From IMG/VR virus record IMGVR_UViG_3300045988_154277: a DNA stretch of 64,000 bases; one strand, given 5' to 3'. Positions 15,479 through 59,837 of this stretch are shown one piece after another; the first letter of the stretch is position 1; each line of letters starts with the position of its first letter. The notes under the pieces are model-generated. The model was not told the origin of the DNA, searched no databases, and was given only the letters and a program-made list of their open reading frames with translations. The translations under genes and the position numbers were made by a program. Source of the stretch: a virus.

Positions 15479-15499
15479 GTAATATATACGTGAAAAACG
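15479..15499 (-). promoter_or_regulatory. Early-type promoter P2 (core TATATATTAC)
   Basis: Sits in a ~55-nt cassette identical to the one at 29850 (ctgtcaggtactcattaagtaatatatacgtgaaaaacgatgaactacactg). Confidence 0.6.
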
Positions 15500-15504
15500 A
15501 TGAA

Positions 15505-15541
15505 CTACACTGAGGGTGCTGACTACGCACCCTCAGTGTAG
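15505..15541 (-). terminator. Terminator hairpin (ctacactgagggtgc...gcaccctcagtgtag)
   Basis: 15-bp stem after stop 15615. The minus-strand tail UUCAUCGUUUUUCACG runs into the promoter. Confidence 0.6.
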
Positions 15542-15614
15542 TTGTGTTATTATACAAAAAAGATAGTGATAACAGAGATGTCCGGACATCTCTGTTATCA
15601 CTTAGTGTGTAAGG

Positions 15615-17449: not shown

Positions 17450-19347
17450 TCATTGGGTTGATCTCACCGGATACAACTGGTGCGGATGGCCTAATGTTGT
17501 TGTTATCATAGCGTTTGCTCGTTAGACAAACTATTCTCTACGTTTCCGTAGATGTTCGGACTATCTTTCAATCCTTATGACTAAGGACAACCGGTCTTTG
17601 GAACACACTTGTGTTCTACTCAGCGTTTCAGCATGATAGTCTCTGATCCTTCTTCCTGGTAACAGGAAGCTTGGAAGCTGATATCCCATTATTACTTCAT
17701 AAGAAGTCTGATCCTTAGCACCATGTGGATACATGGCTTTTATTTCAGCATAGATCATATCAATCATTCTTTCTGCTTTCGCGACTATCACGTTCATCCT
17801 TACGGATCCCGTTGTAGTTGATTGATCTCTTAGGGTATCCCAGCCGTTAACACGGTTTATGCAGCCACAGTGTTACCACTATAGCGCCCCCATACACACC
17901 AGTCATGTGTGAGAGGTAGAGCCAAGATACTTTCAACCACCAACTGAGACGGGTGTGCCTTGAGGAGTGCGACAGGCATATTCCGTCCACCTGTTGTCGA
18001 TTTGGTTTCTGTATTCTCCAGTGAGCGAAATCTCTTCGTGAGTACAGTCAGAAGACTATTGTCGTTGCAAATCGTTGGATTCGCACGGAACACGGAGTTC
18101 GCCATCATCCAGCTCTCTCCTTGAGAAGCTGTGGTGACGAATCGTTTCACCGTATCCGGTGTCAATCCTTCGTTCTTCGCATTGATCACTCCGAAAAGCT
18201 TCGTATTGATTGACGACACCAATGGTGCCATCAACTGACTCAACGAACCGATCTTCTTAGAGAACAAGTTCGTCGGTTCGTAACTGACGATCCACCGATC
18301 GATGTTGTAGAACACCTCTCGGAGAAGTTCGTAGATGCCGTTGACTTGGATGCCGATCGTAGCCAACTGATACTGTGCCGGTGGGTCCAGCAAAGTCGCA
18401 GTGGTCTCAAGATGCTTCTCTGCATTGTCGTAGAGCAGCTGAGCATTCGTAGTACTCGGATAGGTGTATTTGCCTAGCACGGTCTTGTAATAGACCGGGT
18501 GGGTCGCTATCAAATCACGTAATCCGAATCTCGTATACTCAGTGAGACACATCAGGTAAGATGCGATCACCCTTCTCTTGAAGAGATCGTCAAGACAGGA
18601 GTTGTGAACCTTAAGGTAGATATCTTCTCTGATCTCGATGTGAGAGTACTCGTTCGACTCTTCCATCTTCGGTACCAAGGAGATCTCTCCAGGCTGAAAC
18701 CCATAATACTGCATCGTCTTATCGAACGATAGTTCGACCAGATGATACAGGATGATTGGGGTAACACCAGCCTTCTTCCCGCGTCCTCTCTTTCCTTGAT
18801 GGATCTTCACTGTGGGTACGATCTCACGACATACTCTGCCGTCAGTCGTTGTGAAGACGAACTGCTCTGATCTTCTGAAAGTCAATGGTGCACGCATGAC
18901 TTTAATGATCAGACCATCTTGGATACGATGAAGACCGCCGCGCTCTACGATGGCGAACATCGGGAAATATTGCGTGTCGGATAGGATCACCGCTCCATGA
19001 TCCAGATAAGGGATACTGATGTGCAGTGGGTATTGCACATTTTCGAACTCGAAGATGAACTTCAACTGTTCGAATGAACTCTTCTGGATTTGGATCTTCT
19101 TCTTCAGGATCGTGTTGTTACGGATATACTCGATACGCTCGTCAGGAGTTAACCGTTGATACCCAATATAACGTAATCGACCTTTGAAAAGCTTTACTGA
19201 TTCTTGGAACATCACATCGAGATAATCAGGTATCTTCTTAATACTGTTCTCTCTGAAGTGAAGGAGGAAGTCGTCGTTGAAATCCGGGAGCAGATCACTT
19301 GCTCCGATCAGGACATTCCTCAGTACTGGATTGAAATGTTCATCCAC
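17450..19347 (-). CDS. RNAP beta subunit N-terminal fragment, interrupted by a group I intron (exon 1 19347..17905, exon 2 17506..17450)
   Basis: LRYIGYQRLTPDERIEYIRNNTILKKKIQ aligns to E. coli beta [43 protein letters not shown] aligns to the fork-loop GANMQRQAVP. Exon 1 ends on codon CAU (ends in U). The ORF-track reading frame runs on into the intron. Confidence 0.6.
17507..17904 (-). ncRNA. Group I intron A (about 398 nt, no ORF)
   Basis: Homologous to the introns at 40872..41286 and 59203..59606. Shares UGAAAUAAAAGC and the GAAA-capped P4/P5 region (GGUCGAAAGAC-like). Has P7-like GAUCAGAGACUA and a UUAGUC partner. Hairpins carry compensatory changes relative to copy B. Ends ...GCUAUG. 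Confidence 0.6.
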
Positions 19348-37014: not shown

Positions 37015-38931
37015 TCAATCTAAGATACCGAAGAACGGACCGAACAGACCGATCGGTCGAGCGATGTTCGAAGTCTGAGGATCGTTGAAATAATCCTTGA
37101 GTCGTTCGAATGCAAGCTCCATCGACACAGTTCGGTTGCTGATCACATCTTCCAACTTACCGAACGTCACATGATAGGGATCGGTTACCGTACAGAGTTG
37201 ATAGTTCTGCTGGTTGTCGATCACCAAGTTGTGAAGCACGGTCTCCAGGTGGAAGATCGGGATCGAAGATTTTCGCCAGACGATCTCGCAGAAATCGTTC
37301 AACGCGTGAGGAACACTGTTATAGTTCCCTATCGTAGCGGTCAGGAAGGTCGCTACGCTCTTGGTATACGTGATCATATCATCGTTCATGATGATGAATT
37401 TGAACACGTCCTGCTTCGCATCGAACCCTGCCATCGGTACGATCACACCATCTTCGTCGAACTCCAACTTGTTGTAGTTGGTTCTCATGTGGTCCAGGAA
37501 CGCCTCACTCAGATACGGTACGAACGCATCGTACTCCATCTGGATCGTCTCCACCAGTTCCCCATCTTTCAACAGCTCCAGGTAAGACACCTTACTGAAC
37601 GACTCTGCGATGGGAAGTGTATCCAGGTTCAAGTCAACGATCGGCCCAAGCGCATCACTCGGGATCCGGATCTGATACTTATGGATATGTTTCCCCCACT
37701 TCTGATCGAACAGGATGGAGTTGTTGTTCTTGATGAAATACCTTGCAGCACTTTCCGTCAAGTTGTAGATGAGCGAGTTGGTGTTGATCAGGTGTTTCGC
37801 CGACAACACTTTCTGTGATACAGTGGATGATACCTTCGTAGAGCACAGCAGTCCGATATGGATCCCATGTGGAAGATACTTGATCAACCGATCCTTCCCA
37901 TATCCAGCACAGTGTTCACACATCCCGTCCAGATGGTTGCACCCGAACTGAGAGATCATGTTCACTGTTTGACCAACGTATCGATCGATGACGTTCATGT
38001 TGCTGAGAGCGACCCTTCGTCCATCATCGATGATGATCTTGTTGATGAAGTTCTTGGCATACTCTGGTTTGATCGTCATCGGGATCACGTTGTGATCGGA
38101 TCCACAATTTCCAGGATGAACCGTCTGTACCGTGGAACAACCGAGTCTCATCTTCCTTCCGAAATACTGAGACTTCTTGATCACATCTCGTGAGAAGAAG
38201 ATGGACTTCTTCGCTGAGAGGGATTCGGTTGCGAACTCCACCGGTGATTTCAACCCACTGAAGGATGAGGATGAGATCACGAACTTCCGCATCGTATCAT
38301 CGATGTCCGACCGAGGTCCATATGCCAGCAGCATCTGTGGGATCTGGTTGGTCTTCAGAACACCAGCTTGGATGTAGTGATACAGCACGTTGTTCGGAGT
38401 CTTCGGATCTTTCAAGATCTTCAGAAGTTCCTTCCCATCCTGTCTCAGCTGAGCTTCCGCAACCTGAGTACCCCACTTCGGATCGTAGACCTTATCAGCC
38501 AGTTCCTTGATCGGAGGATACTCCAACAGTTGCGTCAAGCTCAGACCATCGATAGATGGCATGTACTCACCCAACTCCGTTGTGATGAAGTTGTAGATCC
38601 TCGATACATTCCGGAAGATCTTGTGGACCATGAGCATGTGGTCCACGTCTGGACGCTCATCCAAAAACCGATCATAGATGATACTGTAGATCTTACTGCT
38701 ACTATCGCTGGAGATACTCTTGATATTGAACGTCTCCTTGATCGTTGGTAAGATCCCGAAGTACATCAACGGTTCCCAGTACAGGATATTCAGGATCGCC
38801 ATGCGTGTAGGCATCTGAACACTCTTGTTGTCTCCAAGAACCAGTTTACACATCCCACGATCTTGATGTGTCTGACGAAGTTGATCGGCATAACCGGCTT
38901 GGGTATACTGATCTGGTGTTAATACAAGCAT
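37015..38931 (-). CDS. RNAP beta-prime subunit C-terminal fragment (638 aa)
   Basis: NVLYHYIQAGVLKT aligns to bridge-helix NVLQYFISTHGARKG. GCSTVQTVHPGNCG aligns to trigger-loop GEPGTQLTMRTFHIGG. Start overlaps the stop of the beta C-terminal gene (ATGA). Confidence 0.5.
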   Translation of the reverse strand: MLVLTPDQYTQAGYADQLRQTHQDRGMCKLVLGDNKSVQMPTRMAILNILYWEPLMYFGILPTIKETFNIKSISSDSSSKIYSIIYDRFLDERPDVDHMLMVHKIFRNVSRIYNFITTELGEYMPSIDGLSLTQLLEYPPIKELADKVYDPKWGTQVAEAQLRQDGKELLKILKDPKTPNNVLYHYIQAGVLKTNQIPQMLLAYGPRSDIDDTMRKFVISSSSFSGLKSPVEFATESLSAKKSIFFSRDVIKKSQYFGRKMRLGCSTVQTVHPGNCGSDHNVIPMTIKPEYAKNFINKIIIDDGRRVALSNMNVIDRYVGQTVNMISQFGCNHLDGMCEHCAGYGKDRLIKYLPHGIHIGLLCSTKVSSTVSQKVLSAKHLINTNSLIYNLTESAARYFIKNNNSILFDQKWGKHIHKYQIRIPSDALGPIVDLNLDTLPIAESFSKVSYLELLKDGELVETIQMEYDAFVPYLSEAFLDHMRTNYNKLEFDEDGVIVPMAGFDAKQDVFKFIIMNDDMITYTKSVATFLTATIGNYNSVPHALNDFCEIVWRKSSIPIFHLETVLHNLVIDNQQNYQLCTVTDPYHVTFGKLEDVISNRTVSMELAFERLKDYFNDPQTSNIARPIGLFGPFFGILD

Positions 38932-41388
38932 TATACTTCCTCCTCGACTTCTTCGACCTCGAACCCGACGGCTGCCAGCTGGTGTTTGAAGATCCCGATG
39001 TTACTGGCACCATCGATCATCTCTTCTGTAGACATCCCGAGATCGTAGATCCCGCTGGGTTTATCAGCCGTCAGCAACAGATACTGGAGTCGATCGATCG
39101 CTGCAGGAGAGTTGCTGTATGTACACAGTAATCTCACAGCCATCTTCGCACCACAACACATCGTAAGAATAGCGGTCTCATCCTCACCATATCGGATCGG
39201 TGTTTGACCGAACATACTCTGTGCTTTCAGACTCTTGCTGTTGGGTTTGATCGGAGATAGGAACTGACTCTGATATCCGAACTCGATGCAGTTCAACTGG
39301 TCGATCGGGATCTTACCGAGCAGGTGGATATAGAGTTCTCCACAGAGAGCATCCGTACAGGTCTTCACCTGTTTCTTACCACCTTTCCCATCTTTGGCGT
39401 TGTAAGTAACCGGAGTTCTCCGGATCCCATACTTCTTCGCCAATCGATCGATCATCTCAGGACTGATGCTGTCACAGAACGGAGGGATCACCATAAAGAT
39501 CCCGTGTTTCTTGCAGCTGTCCACGAACTCATCTTCATAGTTCTTGGTCTTCTCACGAACATACTGCGCGAACACAGGTCTTACCTCTTGGAGATAATCG
39601 AGGATATACTCATATTGAGCTTCGATCGAACTCCACTGTTGAGTCCAGAGATTCCGCACAACCACATCAGAGACATAGTTGATATATTGTTCGTAATACT
39701 GACCACCATTCAGACGGTTGAACGGAGATGCACCTGTGATCAAGATACTGGCTCTGGTTCCATCCTCCATCGTCGGCATATCTTCATCTTCCCAGATGTC
39801 CGAGATCACACCTTTGTTACCAGCGTTACCAACCAGCTTGTAACCACGGTCGACTTCCCGCTGATAAGCATAAGTGATCTTAACTCGGATGAAGTCAACC
39901 GGTTCCTTCTTATTCATCAGGAACATGGACTTCCCACCTCTCCAGTAACTCCAACCTTTACAGCTGGTTACCAGAGTGTTGAACGCAGGAGTAACCTCAC
40001 GTCCTTCTCGTTTCATCTGCTCATACACATCAACGATAGCCGTCCAATAGGTGTGATACTGATCCTGATACTGCATCAGCTGGGCGTATGCTGTATCAGA
40101 ACTCAGCTCTGGATACTTCTTGTGGTTCGTGAAAATCTCAACATCGATCACAGTTGCACCGGCTTCTGCTCGATAGAGATCATCGTGGAACTCCTCTGCA
40201 CGACGGAGCTTCTCATCGGTCATATCCGTTAAGAACGAACTCTTGTTCTGTTTCCGGAATCCGATCAGGATCCCATCTTCACGGATCTGTTCACCGATTT
40301 CAGGGAACGTCTTATACTCGTTCTCCCCACCGTACAGATTCAGAGGGATGTCGTCGATCTTGACATCGATCGTCACACTGTCGATCACCGTGTGTGAGAG
40401 TTGTTTCTGAAGGCTTCTGCTGATCACGAATGCGTCTTCTGTGGTAGCCCACAGAGGAAGATATGCGACGTTGGCATTCACTCCCATCTTGTACAACCCA
40501 TCTTCGTGATTCGGAGATGTAACGAACTTCGTTGTTTGACTGACCAGACGTCCTTCTTGCAGCTGGTCAAAGTTCATCTGTTTGTTGATGTATCCGAATC
40601 CGCTATACAGTTCGGTATAACTGTCGACTTCGAAATACCCAACTTTACCATCTTCTGCTCCGATGTAGATCACAGTGAGACTGGGGTTGTTCTTGATCTT
40701 CTGAAGACCTGCGTTGACTCGGAACTTCGGGATCACAGCGACGATCTGTACGTCCTGATCTCGAGTACTTTTGTCAAATTCATATTTTCCGATCTTCGTC
40801 TCGTAGCCGGACTGGATCCGTGCTGTCTGACACCCATCCACCACCATCATCTGCGGGGCATTTGAGGAGAGCATTCTTTATGTTCAACCGAGTGCGTTAC
40901 TTCTCGGCCCGCAGCATTACCTGCTCCGCTTATAGATTTGCTATAAGAACAGACTATATCTCACTCCTTACTGAGTAAGGAGAACCTCCATTTCCACCCA
41001 CTTGGGTGTACATTTAGTCGTTGATCTTTCTTCTCAGAGAGAAGCTTAGAAGCTGATTTCCCATTGTTCGTTATCACACGATAACGACATCCCTTAGCAC
41101 CGTGTTGTTACACACAGCTTTTATTTCAGCATAGGACATTCTAATCATTCTTTCTGTCTTTCGACCGCGTTCACGCTTACCCTTGCGAGTTACGTTGTAG
41201 CTGATTAGACTTTAGTGGATCCCAGACCGTTAGAAGGTTGATTTCACCACTACATTACTGTAATAGCGCCCAATGTTGTTTAGGCCACGTTGCGAACTGA
41301 TGAACTGTAAGAAAGGTGAAAGGAGCGCAGGCGTTCCTGTCAATTCCGGTCTTACATTTAGATCTGATACAAATTGCGATGTCTTCAC
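38931..41388 (-). CDS. RNAP beta subunit C-terminal fragment, spliced (exon 1 about 41388..41287, exon 2 40871..38931)
   Basis: GNAGNKGVISDIWEDEDMPTMEDGTRASILITGASPFNRLNGGQYYEQ aligns to beta GRHGNKGVISKI...PSRMNIGQ. QSMFGQTPIRYGEDETAIL aligns to GGQRFGEMEVWAL. The listed ATG at 40874 is the last three nt of the intron. Exon 1 has a GTG start with AGGAGG 7 nt upstream and ends on CGU. Confidence 0.65.
40872..41286 (-). ncRNA. Group I intron B (about 415 nt, no ORF)
   Basis: Contains P7/P8/P7-prime as UCAACGACUAAAUG / CACCCAAGUGGGUG / GAUAUAGUCU. The P4/P5 region GCGGUCGAAAGACAGAAAG is near-identical to the beta-prime intron. P9 hairpins are present. Ends ...AAGAAUG. Confidence 0.65.
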
Positions 41389-41449
41389 ATTGATTCCTCC
41401 TAGTTTGGGTGTTATAGTTTCCAATGTTATGACTCAACATACTCAGATA

Positions 41450-57696: not shown

Positions 57697-57729
57697 ACTC
57701 TGATATACACTACACTGAAGGAGGTATTT

Positions 57730-59786
57730 ATGGCTTTAGATCCAGTACGCATCTGGCTGATGGATGTGCCTAAATTCATACGAGAGAATAAATGTCAACC
57801 TGTAACATCCGTCTTCATCCGTGAGACCACAACGAATGAATTTAAACACGATGGGTTGTTCTCAGAAGACATCTTCGGTCAGATCAATACTCCGGAGCGG
57901 TTGATCCGGTTCGGATATGTCGATCTTCGGACGAAGATCCTACATCCGCTCATCTACATCGATATCGTGAAGCTGAAGGCTTTCTATGGAGAGATCATGG
58001 CTCGGAAAGCTTATGCCGTGTTCAATCCAGAGACCAAAGAGTTCATTCGTGCATCGGAAGAAGACGAAGATGCTGATACAGGGTATCAGTTTTTCATGAG
58101 TCATTTGGATGATTTGAAGTTCGAGAAGAACAAGTCCTTGAAACACAACGAGATGGTTGATGTGATCGAGCGACACCAAGGCAAGTTGACATTGGAACAA
58201 TGCCTTGTGATGCCAGCTGGATTACGAGACCTTAGAGAAGACGAAGGTAAACCAGCTGCAGATAGTATCAACAAACTCTACTCTTCTCTGATCAACTACA
58301 CACTGGCTCTTCCCACTACCAAGACTACGTCTGATATTTATGACAATGTCAGGTTCTCGATCCAGAAGAAAGTCTCTGAGATCTATCAGTATCTATTCGA
58401 TATGATCGAAGGGAAGTTCGGGTTCTTCCAGAGGAAGTACGGTTCTCGTAACCTTGCATTGGGTACTCGTAATGTGGTATCCACAGCATCCATGGCTGCG
58501 TTATCACCAGATGATCCTCAGTATCTGAAAATGGATGAGATCAAGATCCCACTCTTCCAGTTATGCAAGATGTTCACTCCGTTGATCATCTACAACATCC
58601 GGATGCTATTCCTGAACGAAGTGTTCCATATCACATCGGACCAGGTTGCTTTGATCGATCCAGAAACCAATAACTTGGTCTACCAGCCGATCGATGAGGA
58701 TGAGAAGAGTCGGTTCCTCTCATCGGAAGGGATCGAGAAGATGATCGATCTTTTCAGGGATCCTGAGTTCCGGTTCACTCCTGTTGTGGTATACAACGAA
58801 GAGGGCAAAGGATATTACCTCTACATGGTCTACGATGATACGGAAGTGATCTACTTGACGAGAAGCGTCAGTGAAGTGATCAACAAGATCAAGGATAAAG
58901 TAGGTGTCTACGATCCTCAGAAACTGAGACCTCTCACTTATGCTGAGATGTTCTACATCGCAGCGTATCGTGCTACTTACGACAAGACTTCATTGATCAC
59001 ACGATATCCTGCCATCGAAGTAGGATCTGAAGTACCGAATCGTGTACATCTGATCTCAACGAACCCTGCAAGGAAGATCAATCTGTTCTCTACGATGGAT
59101 GATGATAACTGGATCATGCTTCCAGAGTATCCGATCATCAACAATACCTTTGTGGATAGTCTGATCCCGCATCCACAGATCTTAGGAGGGTTAGGGATGG
59201 ATTCGCTAAACAGTCGAAGTCCCGCTATCGGGTAACCGGTGGTGACAAGAAAGTGAATTGCTGGAAACATCTAAGAGCTAGTTTGGCTACAGCGTGATCC
59301 GAAAGGATGAATGCGATATGCGGTCGAAAGACAGAAAAAACAAACTAGATGACCTATGGTGAAATAAAAGCTTGTATGTACCACACCAACATACAGGTCC
59401 TAAAGGTTGATGCTTCTATATGAAGCGGAACAATGTGCAATCAGCAGCTAAGCTTATAGATAACTCTCTGAGTCGCTATGAGAAAGTTCATCGACTAGGT
59501 GCTCCCACCCGAGCGATTGGGTGGATGGTATAGTCAGGCCGCTAATGAAGATTAGTGGGTAAACGTATGTAAGTTATTGATATTCAATGAGTTACAACGG
59601 AAGATGTTTGATGGCGACACAGCCTCGTCCAATGGTGTATTGAGCAAACAAGCCAACCAAGAAGTCAATGAGTATTTGGATTCAATAGGACGTTACATCC
59701 ACAGTAACGGAAAATTGATGCACGGTACCACTGACTTGATCAAATTGACGATCTTCAACTTATCGAGAGATCCTGTTCTCGTTTAA
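57730..59786 (+). CDS. RNAP beta-prime subunit N-terminal fragment, interrupted by a group I intron (exon 1 57730..59202, exon 2 59607..59786; about 550 aa spliced)
   Basis: RBS AGGAGG 7 nt before the ATG at 57730. FKHDGLFSEDIFGQ aligns to PERDGLFCARIFGP. LVMPAGLRDLREDEGKPAADSINKLYSSLINYTLAL aligns to [39 protein letters not shown]. Joining ...GLGMD (exon 1, ends in U) to FDGDTASS... (exon 2) recreates the catalytic NADFDGD motif. Exon 2 continues HSNGKLMHGTTDLIKLTIFNLSRD, matching [25 protein letters not shown]. Confidence 0.7.
59203..59606 (+). ncRNA. Group I intron in the beta-prime gene (about 404 nt, no ORF)
   Basis: P7/P8/P7-prime present as UCGACUAGG / CCCACCCGAGCGAUUGGGUGG / GGUAUAGUCAGG, matching the phage group I R/S consensus. 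GAAA-capped helices AUCCGAAAGGAU and GGUCGAAAGAC. P9 is CGCUAAU-GAAG-AUUAGUG. The 5-prime exon ends in U and the intron ends in G (AAGAUG). Confidence 0.75.
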
Positions 59787-59799
59787 AACAAAAGAAGAA

Positions 59800-59835
59800 C
59801 TAAGGAGGGATAGGACCAACCCTATCCCTCCTTAG
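59800..59835 (-). terminator. Terminator hairpin (14-bp stem ctaaggagggatag) followed by UUCUUCUUUUGUUUU
   Basis: After stop 59838. It also lies 14 nt downstream of beta-prime exon 2 on the other strand, so it may act bidirectionally. Confidence 0.65.
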
Positions 59836-59837
59836 TA

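What the first reader, a model, noticed from the sequence alone, without database searches (positions are those of the whole stretch)
59203..59606. Group I intron splits the catalytic NADFDGD motif of the RNAP beta-prime gene
Exon 1 (+ strand 57730..59202) encodes a beta-prime N-terminal fragment and ends ...ILGGLGMD on a GAU codon. After about 404 nt of non-coding sequence, an in-frame segment beginning exactly at UUU GAU GGC GAC encodes FDGDTASS...HSNGKLMHGTTDLIKLTIFNLSRD. This aligns to E. coli beta-prime [14 protein letters not shown]...[25 protein letters not shown]. The metal-binding Asp triad of a multisubunit RNAP exists only in the spliced mRNA. The intervening RNA has the group I catalytic-core signature: UCGACUAGG (P7), hairpin CCCACCCGAGCGAUUGGGUGG (P8), GGUAUAGUCAGG (P7-prime), GAAA-capped P4/P5-like helices, a 5-prime exon ending in U and an intron ending in G. 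It has no homing-endonuclease ORF. The ORF track represents this locus as a 515-aa ORF plus an unrelated 69-aa TTG ORF, which hides the gene structure.
Basis: partly seen in the sequence, partly recalled or inferred. Interest (0 to 1): 0.9.

Follow-up and report, generated by a model that had tools for sequence, protein, structure and literature searches.

The report
Self-splicing intron inside phage RNA-polymerase active site
A 404-base self-splicing (group I) intron really does interrupt the catalytic DFDGD motif of a phiKZ-like jumbo phage's RNA polymerase beta-prime gene, but the same motif is already known to carry an intron in Bacillus phage AR9, so this is a well-supported new example and not a new kind of thing.

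Summary
Window 59203-59606 (+) is a group I intron with no endonuclease ORF. It splits codon D|F of the GMDFDGD motif in a phiKZ gp180-type (virion RNAP) beta-prime N-terminal gene.

- **RNA model:** the match to Rfam RF00028 is full-length, at 38.9 bits (E 2e-8), which is below the curated cut-off of 50.
- **Protein continuity:** PHROG 2986 places exon 1 at profile positions 5-484 and exon 2 at 485-538.
- **Intron-less allele:** a natural uninterrupted allele (99% aa, 94% nt identity) carries exactly the predicted junction GAT|TTY.
- **Structure:** across seven orthologous introns, 95% of cells pair and 31 pairs show compensatory changes. The guide sequence UCGAA|GUCC pairs with both exons, and its P10 part covaries with the 3' exon. 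The upstream U and the terminal G are present.
- **Selection:** exon 2 differs from the intron-less allele at 16 synonymous codons and 1 non-synonymous codon.

Novelty is modest. AR9 g270 (nvRNAP beta-prime N) is annotated with an HNH-carrying intron at DYDG|D, and jumbo-phage RNAP genes are known to be rich in introns.

In this clade the motif is an insertion hot spot, with several apparent intron positions plus inteins. The window also holds two paralogous introns in other RNAP genes. The inteins in relatives replace the third catalytic Asp with Asn; this is unexplained.

The parts
57720..57724 (+). Shine-Dalgarno GGAGG, 5 nt upstream of the ATG at 57730
   Evidence: Read directly from the sequence.
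57730..59202 (+). Exon 1 of the RNAP beta-prime N-terminal gene (491 codons). It ends ...ILGGLGMD, and its last codon GAT encodes the first Asp of the DFDGD triad.
   Evidence: PHROG 2986 profile positions 5-484, E 4e-125. Colinear with the intron-less allele in L056. Codon differences from L056: 71 synonymous, 6 non-synonymous.
59203..59606 (+). Group I intron, 404 nt, with no endonuclease ORF
   Evidence: RF00028 full-length match over 59198-59557, 38.9 bits, E 2e-8. Covariation over 7 orthologs. No ORF longer than 38 aa. Absent from alleles L056 and L057.
59199..59222 (+). P1 hairpin. The 5' exon GGAU (59199-59202) pairs with the guide sequence GUCC (59219-59222), and U59202 forms a wobble pair with G59219 at the splice site. 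The stem extends with U59203-A59218, C59204-G59216 and G59205-C59215.
   Evidence: Read from the sequence. 89% of cells pair across orthologs; the misses are due to L062 being misaligned.
59214..59218 (+). The 5' half of the internal guide sequence (UCGAA). It pairs with the first five bases of exon 2 (UUUGA, 59607-59611) to form P10.
   Evidence: 20 of 20 cells pair. Covariation: L058 UAUGA/UCGUA, L059 UUCGA/UCGGA, L062 CAUGA/UUAUG.
59223..59244 (+). P2, 9 bp with a GUAA loop. The loop contains the TAA (59233-59235) that stops translation of unspliced RNA.
   Evidence: Three pairs show compensatory changes.
59252..59255 (+). P3 5' strand (AGUG). It pairs with UGCU at 59500-59503. This is the shortest and weakest helix of the model.
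   Evidence: 96% of cells pair. One U-G to G-U double change (L061) and G-U/G-C alternation.
59260..59264 (+). P4 5' strand (GCUGG). It pairs with UCAGC at 59441-59445.
59278..59430 (+). Extended P5 domain. It comprises a long helix, two GAAA-capped hairpins and two further hairpins, and includes the family signature GGUCGAAAGACAGAAA.
   Evidence: Helices 5-11, of which 16 pairs show compensatory changes. The 16-mer recurs in 51 IMG/VR loci.
59446..59488 (+). P6/P6a
   Evidence: Six pairs show compensatory changes.
59493..59497 (+). P7 5' strand GACUA. By analogy this holds the guanosine-binding helix. It pairs with UAGUC at 59531-59535 and forms a pseudoknot with P3.
   Evidence: Invariant in all 7 orthologs and 100% paired. 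Matches the RF00028 consensus GACUA...AUAUAGUC.
59505..59524 (+). P8, 8 bp with a GCGA tetraloop
   Evidence: Three pairs show compensatory changes.
59539..59558 (+). P9, 8 bp with a GAAG loop
   Evidence: Two pairs show compensatory changes.
59569..59595 (+). P9.1-like hairpin upstream of the 3' splice site
   Evidence: Present in the MFE and centroid folds. Orthologs L058 and L059 keep a hairpin at this place with different sequence.
59606..59606 (+). Terminal (omega) G of the intron
   Evidence: Read from the sequence. Also G in L001, L059 and L058.
59607..59786 (+). Exon 2 (59 codons plus stop). It encodes FDGDTASS...NLSRDPVLV and carries the second and third catalytic Asp.
   Evidence: PHROG 2986 profile positions 485-538. 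Codon differences from the intron-less allele: 16 synonymous, 1 non-synonymous. No SD before the TTG at 59577.
59799..59836 (.). 17-bp perfect hairpin between the convergent gene ends. It is a probable bidirectional terminator.

Best explanation
Window 57730-59786 (+) is one gene. It encodes the N-terminal fragment of the beta-prime subunit of a phiKZ-like multisubunit phage RNA polymerase and is orthologous to phiKZ gp180 / PhiPA3 gp212, the virion-RNAP set. A 404-nt group I intron without an endonuclease ORF interrupts it.

Proposed mechanism. The anatomy is shown; the chemistry is inferred from the family.
1. The pre-mRNA folds into the P1-P9 ribozyme.
2. The 5' exon end GGAU pairs with the guide sequence GUCC, with a U-G wobble at the cleavage site.
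3. A free guanosine bound at P7 attacks after U59202.
4. The guide sequence's 5' half, UCGAA, holds the first bases of exon 2 (UUUGA) in P10.
5. The freed 3'-OH of U59202 attacks after the terminal G59606.
6. The exons join as ...GGG AUG GAU|UUU GAU GGC GAC..., giving GMDFDGD and a 550-aa protein with the complete Mg-binding Asp triad.

Unspliced RNA is translated only to the UAA in the P2 loop. That yields a 501-aa product with one of the three Asp residues, so an active enzyme depends on splicing.

The intron belongs to a widespread phage intron family. Two paralogs sit in other RNAP genes of the same window. It has no endonuclease of its own, so it is either inherited vertically and occasionally lost, or mobilised in trans.
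For: **RNA model**
- The RF00028 match is full-length (model positions 1-253), 38.9 bits, E 2e-8 and E 2e-6 over the whole window.

**Protein continuity**
- PHROG 2986 matches exon 1 at profile positions 5-484 and exon 2 at 485-538. The spliced protein scores E 1.5e-139.
- tblastn of the spliced protein crosses the junction in a single piece in 300 phage records.

**Natural intron-less alleles**
- P0001 (550 aa, 99% identity, 133 members) is encoded on L056, which has the same neighbouring genes.
- L056 is 94% nt identical to exon 1 plus exon 2, with junction GAT|TTC.
- L057 and L004 are also uninterrupted.

**Structure**
- Over 7 orthologous introns, 95.2% of cells pair, against 32-42% when the partners are slid.
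- 31 pairs show compensatory change, against 3-6 when slid. No shuffle out of 500 reaches the observed values.
- P10 pairs in 100% of cells and covaries with the F-to-Y and F-to-H codon changes of exon 2.
- The MFE z-score is -4.1.

**Selection and identity**
- Codon differences from the intron-less allele are 16 synonymous to 1 non-synonymous in exon 2, and 71 to 6 in exon 1.
Against: - No RNA data exist, so splicing is inferred and not observed.
- The Rfam score is below the curated gathering threshold (38.9 against 50), and the default scan is empty.
- P3 is only 4 bp.
- P5 proper could not be drawn consistently across the orthologs.
- P7 is invariant, so it carries no covariation evidence.
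- Two distant orthologs (L060, L062) lack a G at the expected last intron position. L060 also has an SD and ATG before its exon 2. Some members of this lineage may therefore be decaying or expressed differently.
- The window itself has no identifiable host or sample.
Confidence: 0.92

Rival explanations
1. The element is a decayed group I intron that no longer splices. Either the gene is a pseudogene, or the two parts are made as separate polypeptides that assemble, adding one more split to an already split RNAP.
For: - In the related contig L060 the intron starts with UAA. Its 3' part is replaced by about 130 nt carrying AGGAGA plus ATG in frame with FDGD, and no G precedes the expected 3' splice site.
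- The window intron has no endonuclease, which is typical of introns on the way to loss.
Against: - In the window all canonical splice-site features are intact: the upstream U, the U-G wobble, P10 and the terminal G.
- There is no SD or ATG in front of exon 2. The only start is a TTG 30 nt upstream, inside the P9.1 hairpin.
- The intron structure is kept by compensatory changes among orthologs that differ by 5-30%.
- Both exons are under strong purifying selection.
Confidence: 0.05
2. The 404 nt is some other insertion, such as a small mobile element or an unrelated structured RNA, and the similarity to group I introns is superficial. The gene would then be restored by another route, for example translational bypassing.
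For: The Rfam hit is below the gathering threshold.
Against: - The covariance-model alignment is full-length, with the conserved J3/4-P4, J6/7-P7 and J8/7-P7' core sequences.
- Guide-sequence pairing to both exons, with covariation, is specific to group I splicing.
- 404 nt with stop codons in all frames is far beyond any known bypass.
- Family members lie in unannotated gaps of many cultured phages.
Confidence: 0.02
3. It is an assembly or chimera artefact of a metagenomic contig.
For: The window has no near-identical match among cultured phages.
Against: - The same intron sits at the same codon in independent assemblies from IMG/VR, ENA and Logan. These are L001, L058, L059 and L061, at 78-99% protein identity.
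Confidence: 0.01

Closest known systems
Bacillus phage AR9 g270/g271: group I intron in the non-virion RNAP beta-prime N-terminal gene
   Same: - It is a jumbo-phage split beta-prime N-terminal fragment whose DxDGD catalytic motif is interrupted by a group I intron.
- The CDS is annotated as a join, and the spliced protein has been solved (7s00/7s01).
- Close relatives (Goe21) are uninterrupted, as here.
   Different: - The AR9 intron sits at DYDG|D, four codons downstream of the site here (D|FDGD).
- It carries an HNH homing endonuclease (g271).
- It is in the nvRNAP paralog, not the gp180-type gene.
- Its RF00028 hits are fragmentary.
- No sequence relationship between the two introns was tested.
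PhiPA3 gp210 intron in the virion RNAP beta gene gp211/209 (Birkholz et al. 2024, PMC11620839)
   Same: - It is a group I intron in a virion-RNAP subunit gene of a phiKZ-like phage.
- It is inserted right after conserved catalytic-region Asp residues.
- The gene is adjacent to the ortholog (gp212) of the gene studied here.
   Different: - It is in a different subunit (beta, not beta-prime).
- It carries an HNH endonuclease with a demonstrated role in phage-phage competition.
- The window intron has no ORF.
Endonuclease-less group I introns of phages, such as the multiple small introns of Staphylococcus phage Twort and the introns of T-even phages (from general knowledge)
   Same: - They are self-splicing ribozymes in essential genes at conserved motifs.
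- They are patchily distributed among close relatives.
- Several copies occur per genome.
   Different: - The host gene differs.
- The window intron has an extended P5 domain and lacks P7.1/P7.2 in this copy.
- The subgroup (IA/IC etc.) was not determined here.
Intron- and intein-rich uncultured huge phages (Jug phages, crAss-like phages; PMC12880540)
   Same: - Many essential genes are fragmented by group I introns and inteins.
- Splicing there is supported by metatranscriptomes.
   Different: - The window has 43-49% GC against 27-30% for Jug phages, so it is not a Jug phage.
- That paper names terL, nrdD and DNA polymerase, not RNAP, as examples.

Membership tests
Group I intron | Match to the family covariance model (Rfam RF00028) | tested here: inconclusive
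   Full-length match (model 1-253) at 38.9 bits, E 2e-8 locally and 2e-6 over the window. This is below the curated gathering score of 50, so nothing is reported at default settings.
Group I intron | P1: the 5' exon end pairs with an internal guide sequence, with a U-G wobble at the 5' splice site | tested here: met
   GGAU (59199-59202) pairs with GUCC (59219-59222), including U59202-G59219, plus 3 further pairs inside the intron. The helix is kept in the orthologs.
Group I intron | P10: the 3' exon start pairs with the 5' part of the guide sequence | tested here: met
   UUUGA pairs with UCGAA. 20 of 20 cells pair, and the guide sequence changes compensate for the F-to-Y and F-to-H codon changes in L058 and L062.
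Group I intron | Terminal guanosine (omega G) at the 3' end of the intron | tested here: met
   G59606. Also G in L001, L058 and L059. Not G in the divergent L060 and L062.
Group I intron | Conserved core of P3-P4-P6 and P7-P8-P9 with a P3/P7 pseudoknot, maintained by covariation | tested here: met
   97 pairs with 95.2% of cells paired. 31 pairs show compensatory change against 3-6 in the slid controls, and 0 of 500 shuffles reach the observed values. P7 is invariant and P3 is only 4 bp.
Group I intron | Exon ligation restores a continuous, conserved reading frame | tested here: met
   PHROG profile positions 484 and 485 abut. The intron-less alleles L056, L057 and L004 carry the predicted junction.
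Group I intron | Guanosine-dependent self-splicing | not testable with these tools
   This needs in vitro transcription and splicing, or RNA from infected cells.
Multisubunit RNAP beta-prime, N-terminal fragment of phiKZ-like phages (gp180 type) | Double-psi beta-barrel region ending in the (N)ADFDGD metal-binding motif | tested here: met
   The profile of 35 homologs aligns GLGaDFDGD with NADFDGD of bacterial and plastid beta-prime (E 3e-10 to 2e-6) and with the AR9 beta-prime N subunit (E 5e-19). D491, D493, G494 and D495 are invariant.
Multisubunit RNAP beta-prime, N-terminal fragment of phiKZ-like phages (gp180 type) | Orthology to the virion-RNAP subunit and not to the non-virion one | tested here: inconclusive
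   The single best tblastn place per genome is PhiPA3 gp212, annotated as similar to phiKZ gp180, and several records annotate it as virion-associated. No phylogeny against the nvRNAP paralogs was made.
Multisubunit RNAP beta-prime, N-terminal fragment of phiKZ-like phages (gp180 type) | Packaged in the virion | not testable with these tools
   This needs virion proteomics.
Mobile (homing) group I intron | Intron-encoded homing endonuclease | tested here: not met
   No ORF longer than 38 aa on either strand inside 59203-59606. The flanking genes have no PHROG hit.

The most novel reading that the evidence does not exclude
The endonuclease-less introns in this phage may be more than passive relics. 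There are three paralogous copies in the window, all in RNAP subunit genes. They may be retained because occupying the site destroys the target of homing endonucleases carried by competing phages. In this clade the 21 nt that encode DFDGD are contested by several apparent intron positions and by an endonuclease-bearing intein, so an occupied site would act as immunity in the intron-endonuclease warfare shown for PhiPA3 against phiKZ.

A second, separate possibility concerns relatives only. The inteins at this motif put Asn in place of the third catalytic Asp and end in Tyr-Asp. They may therefore splice by a non-canonical route, or yield an RNAP with a DFDGN centre.
Probability: 0.12. Interest if true: 0.6.

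Novelty: new member of a known kind. Interest (0 to 1): 0.3.

Why it matters
**Annotation.** Gene callers report a truncated 515-aa ORF and an orphan 69-aa ORF. This hides an essential polymerase subunit and its active site. The same error affects two more RNAP genes in this window and about a fifth of the 120 closest homologs in public metagenomes.

**Biology.** The catalytic-loop codons of a jumbo-phage RNAP are a recurrent landing site for self-splicing elements, with several apparent intron positions plus inteins and sometimes both in one gene. This fits the idea that homing elements target sequence that cannot change, and it gives natural intron-plus and intron-minus allele pairs for studying competition between related jumbo phages.

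It does not change what is known about group I introns or about RNAP.

Tried and rejected
- **Rfam at gathering thresholds:** no hit anywhere in the window. The E-value mode was needed.
- **Megablast of the locus against cultured phages:** no match.
- **Exact 28-mer of the P7-P8 core in IMG/VR:** no match, because even the 99%-identical relative has one substitution there.
- **phmmer of the spliced protein against the PDB:** nothing. A profile of homologs was needed.
- **Pfam on the exons and the spliced protein:** nothing significant.
- **Jug-phage origin:** considered because a related contig is 361 kb and those phages are rich in introns and inteins. Rejected on GC content, 43-49% against 27-30%. 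No supplementary tables of that paper are held.
- **RNAalifold helix:** it pairs the 5' splice-site region with GUGAAUU (columns 8-15 with 65-72). I replaced it with P1 and P3, which fit the family architecture and the covariation.
- **P5 proper:** I could not find a register that pairs in all orthologs, so it is left unassigned.
- **Third intron (about 17549-17889, minus strand):** no RF00028 hit even at E 1, and its splice sites could not be fixed by P1/P10 logic.
- **Intein insert:** phmmer against the PDB gave nothing. Only weak Pfam hits and a pairwise alignment support an intein.
- **Translational bypass and intein for the window's own insert:** rejected, because of stop codons in all frames and the 404-nt length.
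Full report
**1. What is in the sequence**

The + strand has an ATG at 57730, preceded by GGAGG at 57720-57724. It opens a frame that reads ...ILGGLGMD up to the GAT at 59200-59202. The frame then runs ten more codons (SLNSRSPAIG) to a TAA at 59233-59235.

From 59607 the same strand reads TTT GAT GGC GAC ..., encoding FDGDTASSNG...NLSRDPVLV, with a stop at 59784-59786. The 404 nt in between hold no ORF longer than 38 aa on either strand. The base before the proposed 5' splice site is U59202, and the last base of the insert is G59606.

**2. The two coding pieces are one gene**

- PHROG 2986 ("RNA polymerase beta subunit") matches exon 1 at profile positions 5-484 (E 4e-125) and exon 2 at positions 485-538 (E 6e-7). 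The pieces abut on the profile. The joined 550-aa protein scores E 1.5e-139.
- tblastn of the joined protein against 50,697 phage records gives 314 records, and 300 of them cover the query in a single piece across the junction. These are phiKZ-like jumbo phages at 30-33% identity.
- The strongest evidence is a natural uninterrupted allele. P0001 is 550 aa, 99% identical, and represents 133 sequences.
  - Its 17.5-kb contig L056 has the same neighbours as the window: a lysozyme and a phiKZ_IP internal head protein upstream on the other strand.
  - Its gene is colinear with exon 1 plus exon 2 at 94% nucleotide identity, with ...GGT ATG GAT|TTC GAT GGC GAC at the junction.
- L057 (90% aa identity) and L004 (52%, motif GADHDGD) are uninterrupted as well.
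- Between the window and L056, exon 1 differs at 71 synonymous and 6 non-synonymous codons. Exon 2 differs at 16 synonymous and 1 non-synonymous codon. Exon 2 is therefore translated in the predicted frame.
- There is no Shine-Dalgarno sequence before the TTG at 59577.

**3. The gene is a beta-prime N-terminal fragment and the motif is the catalytic one**

- Pfam and a single-sequence PDB search found nothing.
- A profile of 35 uninterrupted homologs (A2) hits the beta-prime N-terminal subunit of the AR9 non-virion RNAP (7s00/7s01, E 5e-19). It also hits dozens of bacterial, cyanobacterial and plastid beta-prime chains.
- That profile aligns its LhpsklkgLgaDFDGDtvs stretch with [23 protein letters not shown]. 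In E. coli the aligned stretch is residues 446-516.
- D491, D493, G494 and D495 are invariant in A2.
- The PhiPA3 homolog is gp212, annotated as similar to phiKZ gp180. It lies next to the vRNAP beta gene gp211/209, which carries the published gp210 intron (PMC11620839).
- Taking gp180 to be the virion-RNAP beta-prime N fragment (from general knowledge), I call the gene gp180-type. I did not make a tree against the non-virion paralogs.

**4. The insert is a group I intron**

- Rfam at gathering thresholds reports nothing. With E-value thresholds, RF00028 matches 59198-59557 over the whole model (positions 1-253) at 38.9 bits. That is E 2e-8 for the local search and 2e-6 for the whole window. 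The curated cut-off is 50 bits, so this alone is suggestive only.
- The splice-site logic is textbook.
  - The guide sequence is 5'-UCGAA|GUCC-3' (59214-59222).
  - GUCC pairs with the exon end GGAU, with the U59202-G59219 wobble. P1 continues with three pairs inside the intron.
  - UCGAA pairs with the first five bases of exon 2 (UUUGA), forming P10.
- I collected orthologous introns at the same codon from independent assemblies: L001 (99% aa), L059, L058, L061, L060 and L062.
- P10 covaries with the exon.
  - L058 has exon UAUGA (Tyr instead of Phe) with guide UCGUA.
  - L059 has UUCGA with UCGGA.
  - L062 has CAUGA (His) with UUAUG.
- On the 7-sequence alignment A1 I scored a canonical structure: P1, P2, P3, P4, an extended P5 domain, P6, P7 as a pseudoknot with P3, P8 and P9.

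| Measure | Observed | Partners slid by 1-3 columns | 500 shuffles |
|---|---|---|---|
| Cells forming a standard pair | 95.2% of 646 | 32-42% | mean 88.2%; none reach the observed value |
| Pairs with change on both sides | 31 | 3-6 | mean 9.3 (sd 2.3); none reach the observed value |

- The single sequence folds with a z-score of -4.1.
- Weak points:
  - P3 is only 4 bp (AGUG/UGCU), although it shows a U-G to G-U swap.
  - P7 (GACUA/UAGUC) is invariant and so uninformative.
  - I could not draw P5 proper consistently.
  - The subgroup was not determined.

**5. How it most likely works**

1. The pre-mRNA folds into the ribozyme.
2. A free guanosine attacks after U59202.
3. The exon's 3'-OH attacks after G59606 while P10 holds exon 2.
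4. The exons join as GAU|UUU, giving GMDFDGD and a 550-aa subunit.

Without splicing, translation stops at the UAA in the P2 loop. The product then has one of the three metal-binding Asp residues. The anatomy is shown. The chemistry is inferred from the family, and no RNA data were available.

**6. Context**

- The 16-mer GGTCGAAAGACAGAAA of the P5 domain occurs in 51 IMG/VR loci. nhmmer relates almost all of them to this intron.
- Nucleotides 54-173 are 74-82% identical to unannotated gaps in Enterococcus, Listeria, Klebsiella (Miami), Pseudomonas, Shewanella, Staphylococcus and Lactococcus phages. The intron therefore belongs to a widespread phage family.
- The window holds two paralogs.
  - One lies at 40876-41281 (minus strand; RF00028 36.5 bits). 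It sits between a 44-codon first exon and the 647-aa ORF of an RNAP beta fragment (PF00562; PHROG 3295 from profile position 35), with its own P1 (GGCCU/GGGC) and P10 (AAUG/CAUU).
  - The other lies at about 17549-17889 (minus strand), after a 496-aa ORF that matches PHROG 2943, annotated only as "polymerase". I read it as beta-like from its sequence. Rfam does not detect it, and I could not fix its ends.

**7. The motif is an insertion hot spot**

- Of the 120 best homologs, 23 are ORFs that break off inside or at the motif.

| Apparent break point | Homologs |
|---|---|
| After the first Asp (D\|FDGD) | 11 |
| Around DF\| | 3 |
| After DFD\| or DYD\| | 6 |
| After DFDGD\| | 2 |
| Just before the motif | 1 |

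- Only some of these were checked at DNA level (L058-L063). L063 has an intron at DFD|GD.
- Eleven more homologs carry a 196- to about 410-aa in-frame insert after DFDG-N. It starts CL(I/V)GST and ends (V/I/T)YD before T(A/V/I/C)S.
- The insert has sub-threshold Pfam Intein_splicing hits. It is probably an intein.
- L058 has both the intron and the intein in one gene.

**8. Comparison with what is known**

- AR9 g270, the nvRNAP beta-prime N-terminal gene, is annotated as a two-piece join with the HNH endonuclease g271 inside.
  - Its exon 1 ends ...SGDYDG (GGT|AAGGCG...) and its exon 2 starts (..AAAUG|) GAC GUA = DVLNI.
  - The AR9 intron therefore splits the same motif four codons downstream.
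  - The relative Goe21 is uninterrupted.
- The literature already states that jumbo-phage RNAP subunit genes are frequently disrupted by introns (bioRxiv 10.1101/2020.12.14.422802, citing the AR9 genome paper).
- The PhiPA3 gp210 intron shows a competitive role for such elements (PMC11620839; PMC12908238).
- The present case differs in four ways. The position is D|FDGD. There is no endonuclease. The gene is the gp180-type paralog. The phage lineage is uncultured, with 43-49% GC, so it is not a Jug phage.
- It is a new member of a known kind.

**9. Verdict**

Confidence that this is a functional group I intron is 0.92; splicing itself remains unobserved. Interest is modest (0.3) because of the AR9 precedent.

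The most intriguing by-product is the intein puzzle in relatives. Asn replaces the third catalytic Asp, which is invariant in every intein-less homolog, and the intein ends Tyr-Asp instead of His-Asn. I could not explain this.

Noticed in passing
window 40876-41281 (- strand): A second group I intron of about 406 nt (RF00028 36.5 bits, E 1.4e-7), paralogous to the first. It splits an RNAP beta-fragment gene between a 44-codon first exon (41293-41424, ...ISSQRG) and the 647-aa ORF 38931-40874 (PF00562; PHROG 3295 from profile position 35). P1 is GGCCU/GGGC and P10 is AAUG/CAUU, which puts the splice sites after 41282 and after G40876.
   Followed up: partly
window about 17549-17889 (- strand): A third paralogous intron-like element (nhmmer E 1e-27 to the second intron and 3e-13 to the first). 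It follows the 496-aa ORF 17857-19347, which matches PHROG 2943 ("polymerase") and reads as RNAP beta-like (...AHPSQLVVESILALPLTHD). Rfam RF00028 gives no hit even at E 1, and the exact splice sites were not resolved.
   Followed up: partly
L002/L003 4001-6241; proteins P0003, P0005, P0013, P0023, P0026, P0029, P0035, P0070, P0077-P0079: Relatives carry a probable intein four codons downstream of the intron site. All read DFDG-N|C...(V/I/T)YD|T. Asn replaces the third catalytic Asp, which is invariant in 35 intein-less homologs, and the intein ends Tyr-Asp instead of His-Asn. Canonical splicing would give a DFDGN active site. This is unexplained.
   Followed up: partly
L058 3974-5996: One gene carries both elements. 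The group I intron sits at GMD|YDGN, with the guide sequence compensating for the Tyr codon. Immediately after it, the intein follows in exon 2 (YDGN|CLIGST...VVVYD|TASS).
   Followed up: partly
L060 3974-4486: This orthologous intron begins with UAA directly after GAU. Its 3' part is replaced by about 130 nt carrying AGGAGA plus ATG (MERSRSVVSEGSYCVA-FDGD...), and no G precedes the expected 3' splice site. The gene may be expressed as two polypeptides split inside the DFDGD motif. Its intein variant starts with Ser and keeps Asp at position -1.
   Followed up: no
proteins P0017, P0052, P0063, P0098, P0099, P0102, P0103, P0106, P0113, P0117, P0119; L063 3977-4296: Truncated homologs break off at other points of the motif: around DF|, after DFD| or DYD|, and after DFDGD|. 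This suggests several distinct intron insertion sites within seven codons. Only L063 (DFD|GD) was inspected at DNA level.
   Followed up: partly
window 59186-59209 compared with L056 7456-7476: Synonymous differences between the intron-containing and intron-less alleles cluster at the insertion site, at positions -16, -13, -12, -10, -7 and +2. That is 6 differences within about 20 nt, against 6% overall. It is consistent with a diverged homing site or a co-conversion tract.
   Followed up: no
L005-L055 (IMG/VR) and hits H41-H64 in cultured phages: The 16-mer GGTCGAAAGACAGAAA from the P5 domain marks a large intron family. It occurs in 51 viral contigs, and the similar stretches in Enterococcus, Listeria, Klebsiella Miami, Pseudomonas, Shewanella, Staphylococcus and Lactococcus phages are mostly unannotated.
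   Followed up: partly
window 59799-59836: A perfect 17-bp hairpin (ACTAAGGAGGGATAGG...CCTATCCCTCCTTAGT) lies between the convergent ends of the beta-prime gene and the 108-aa minus-strand ORF. It is a probable bidirectional terminator.
   Followed up: no
window 15495-15549: A weak hit to the microRNA family mir-5881 (26.7 bits, gathering score 87) appears on both strands at the same place. This indicates a palindromic hairpin just downstream of the 584-aa minus-strand ORF, and is almost certainly not a microRNA.
   Followed up: no
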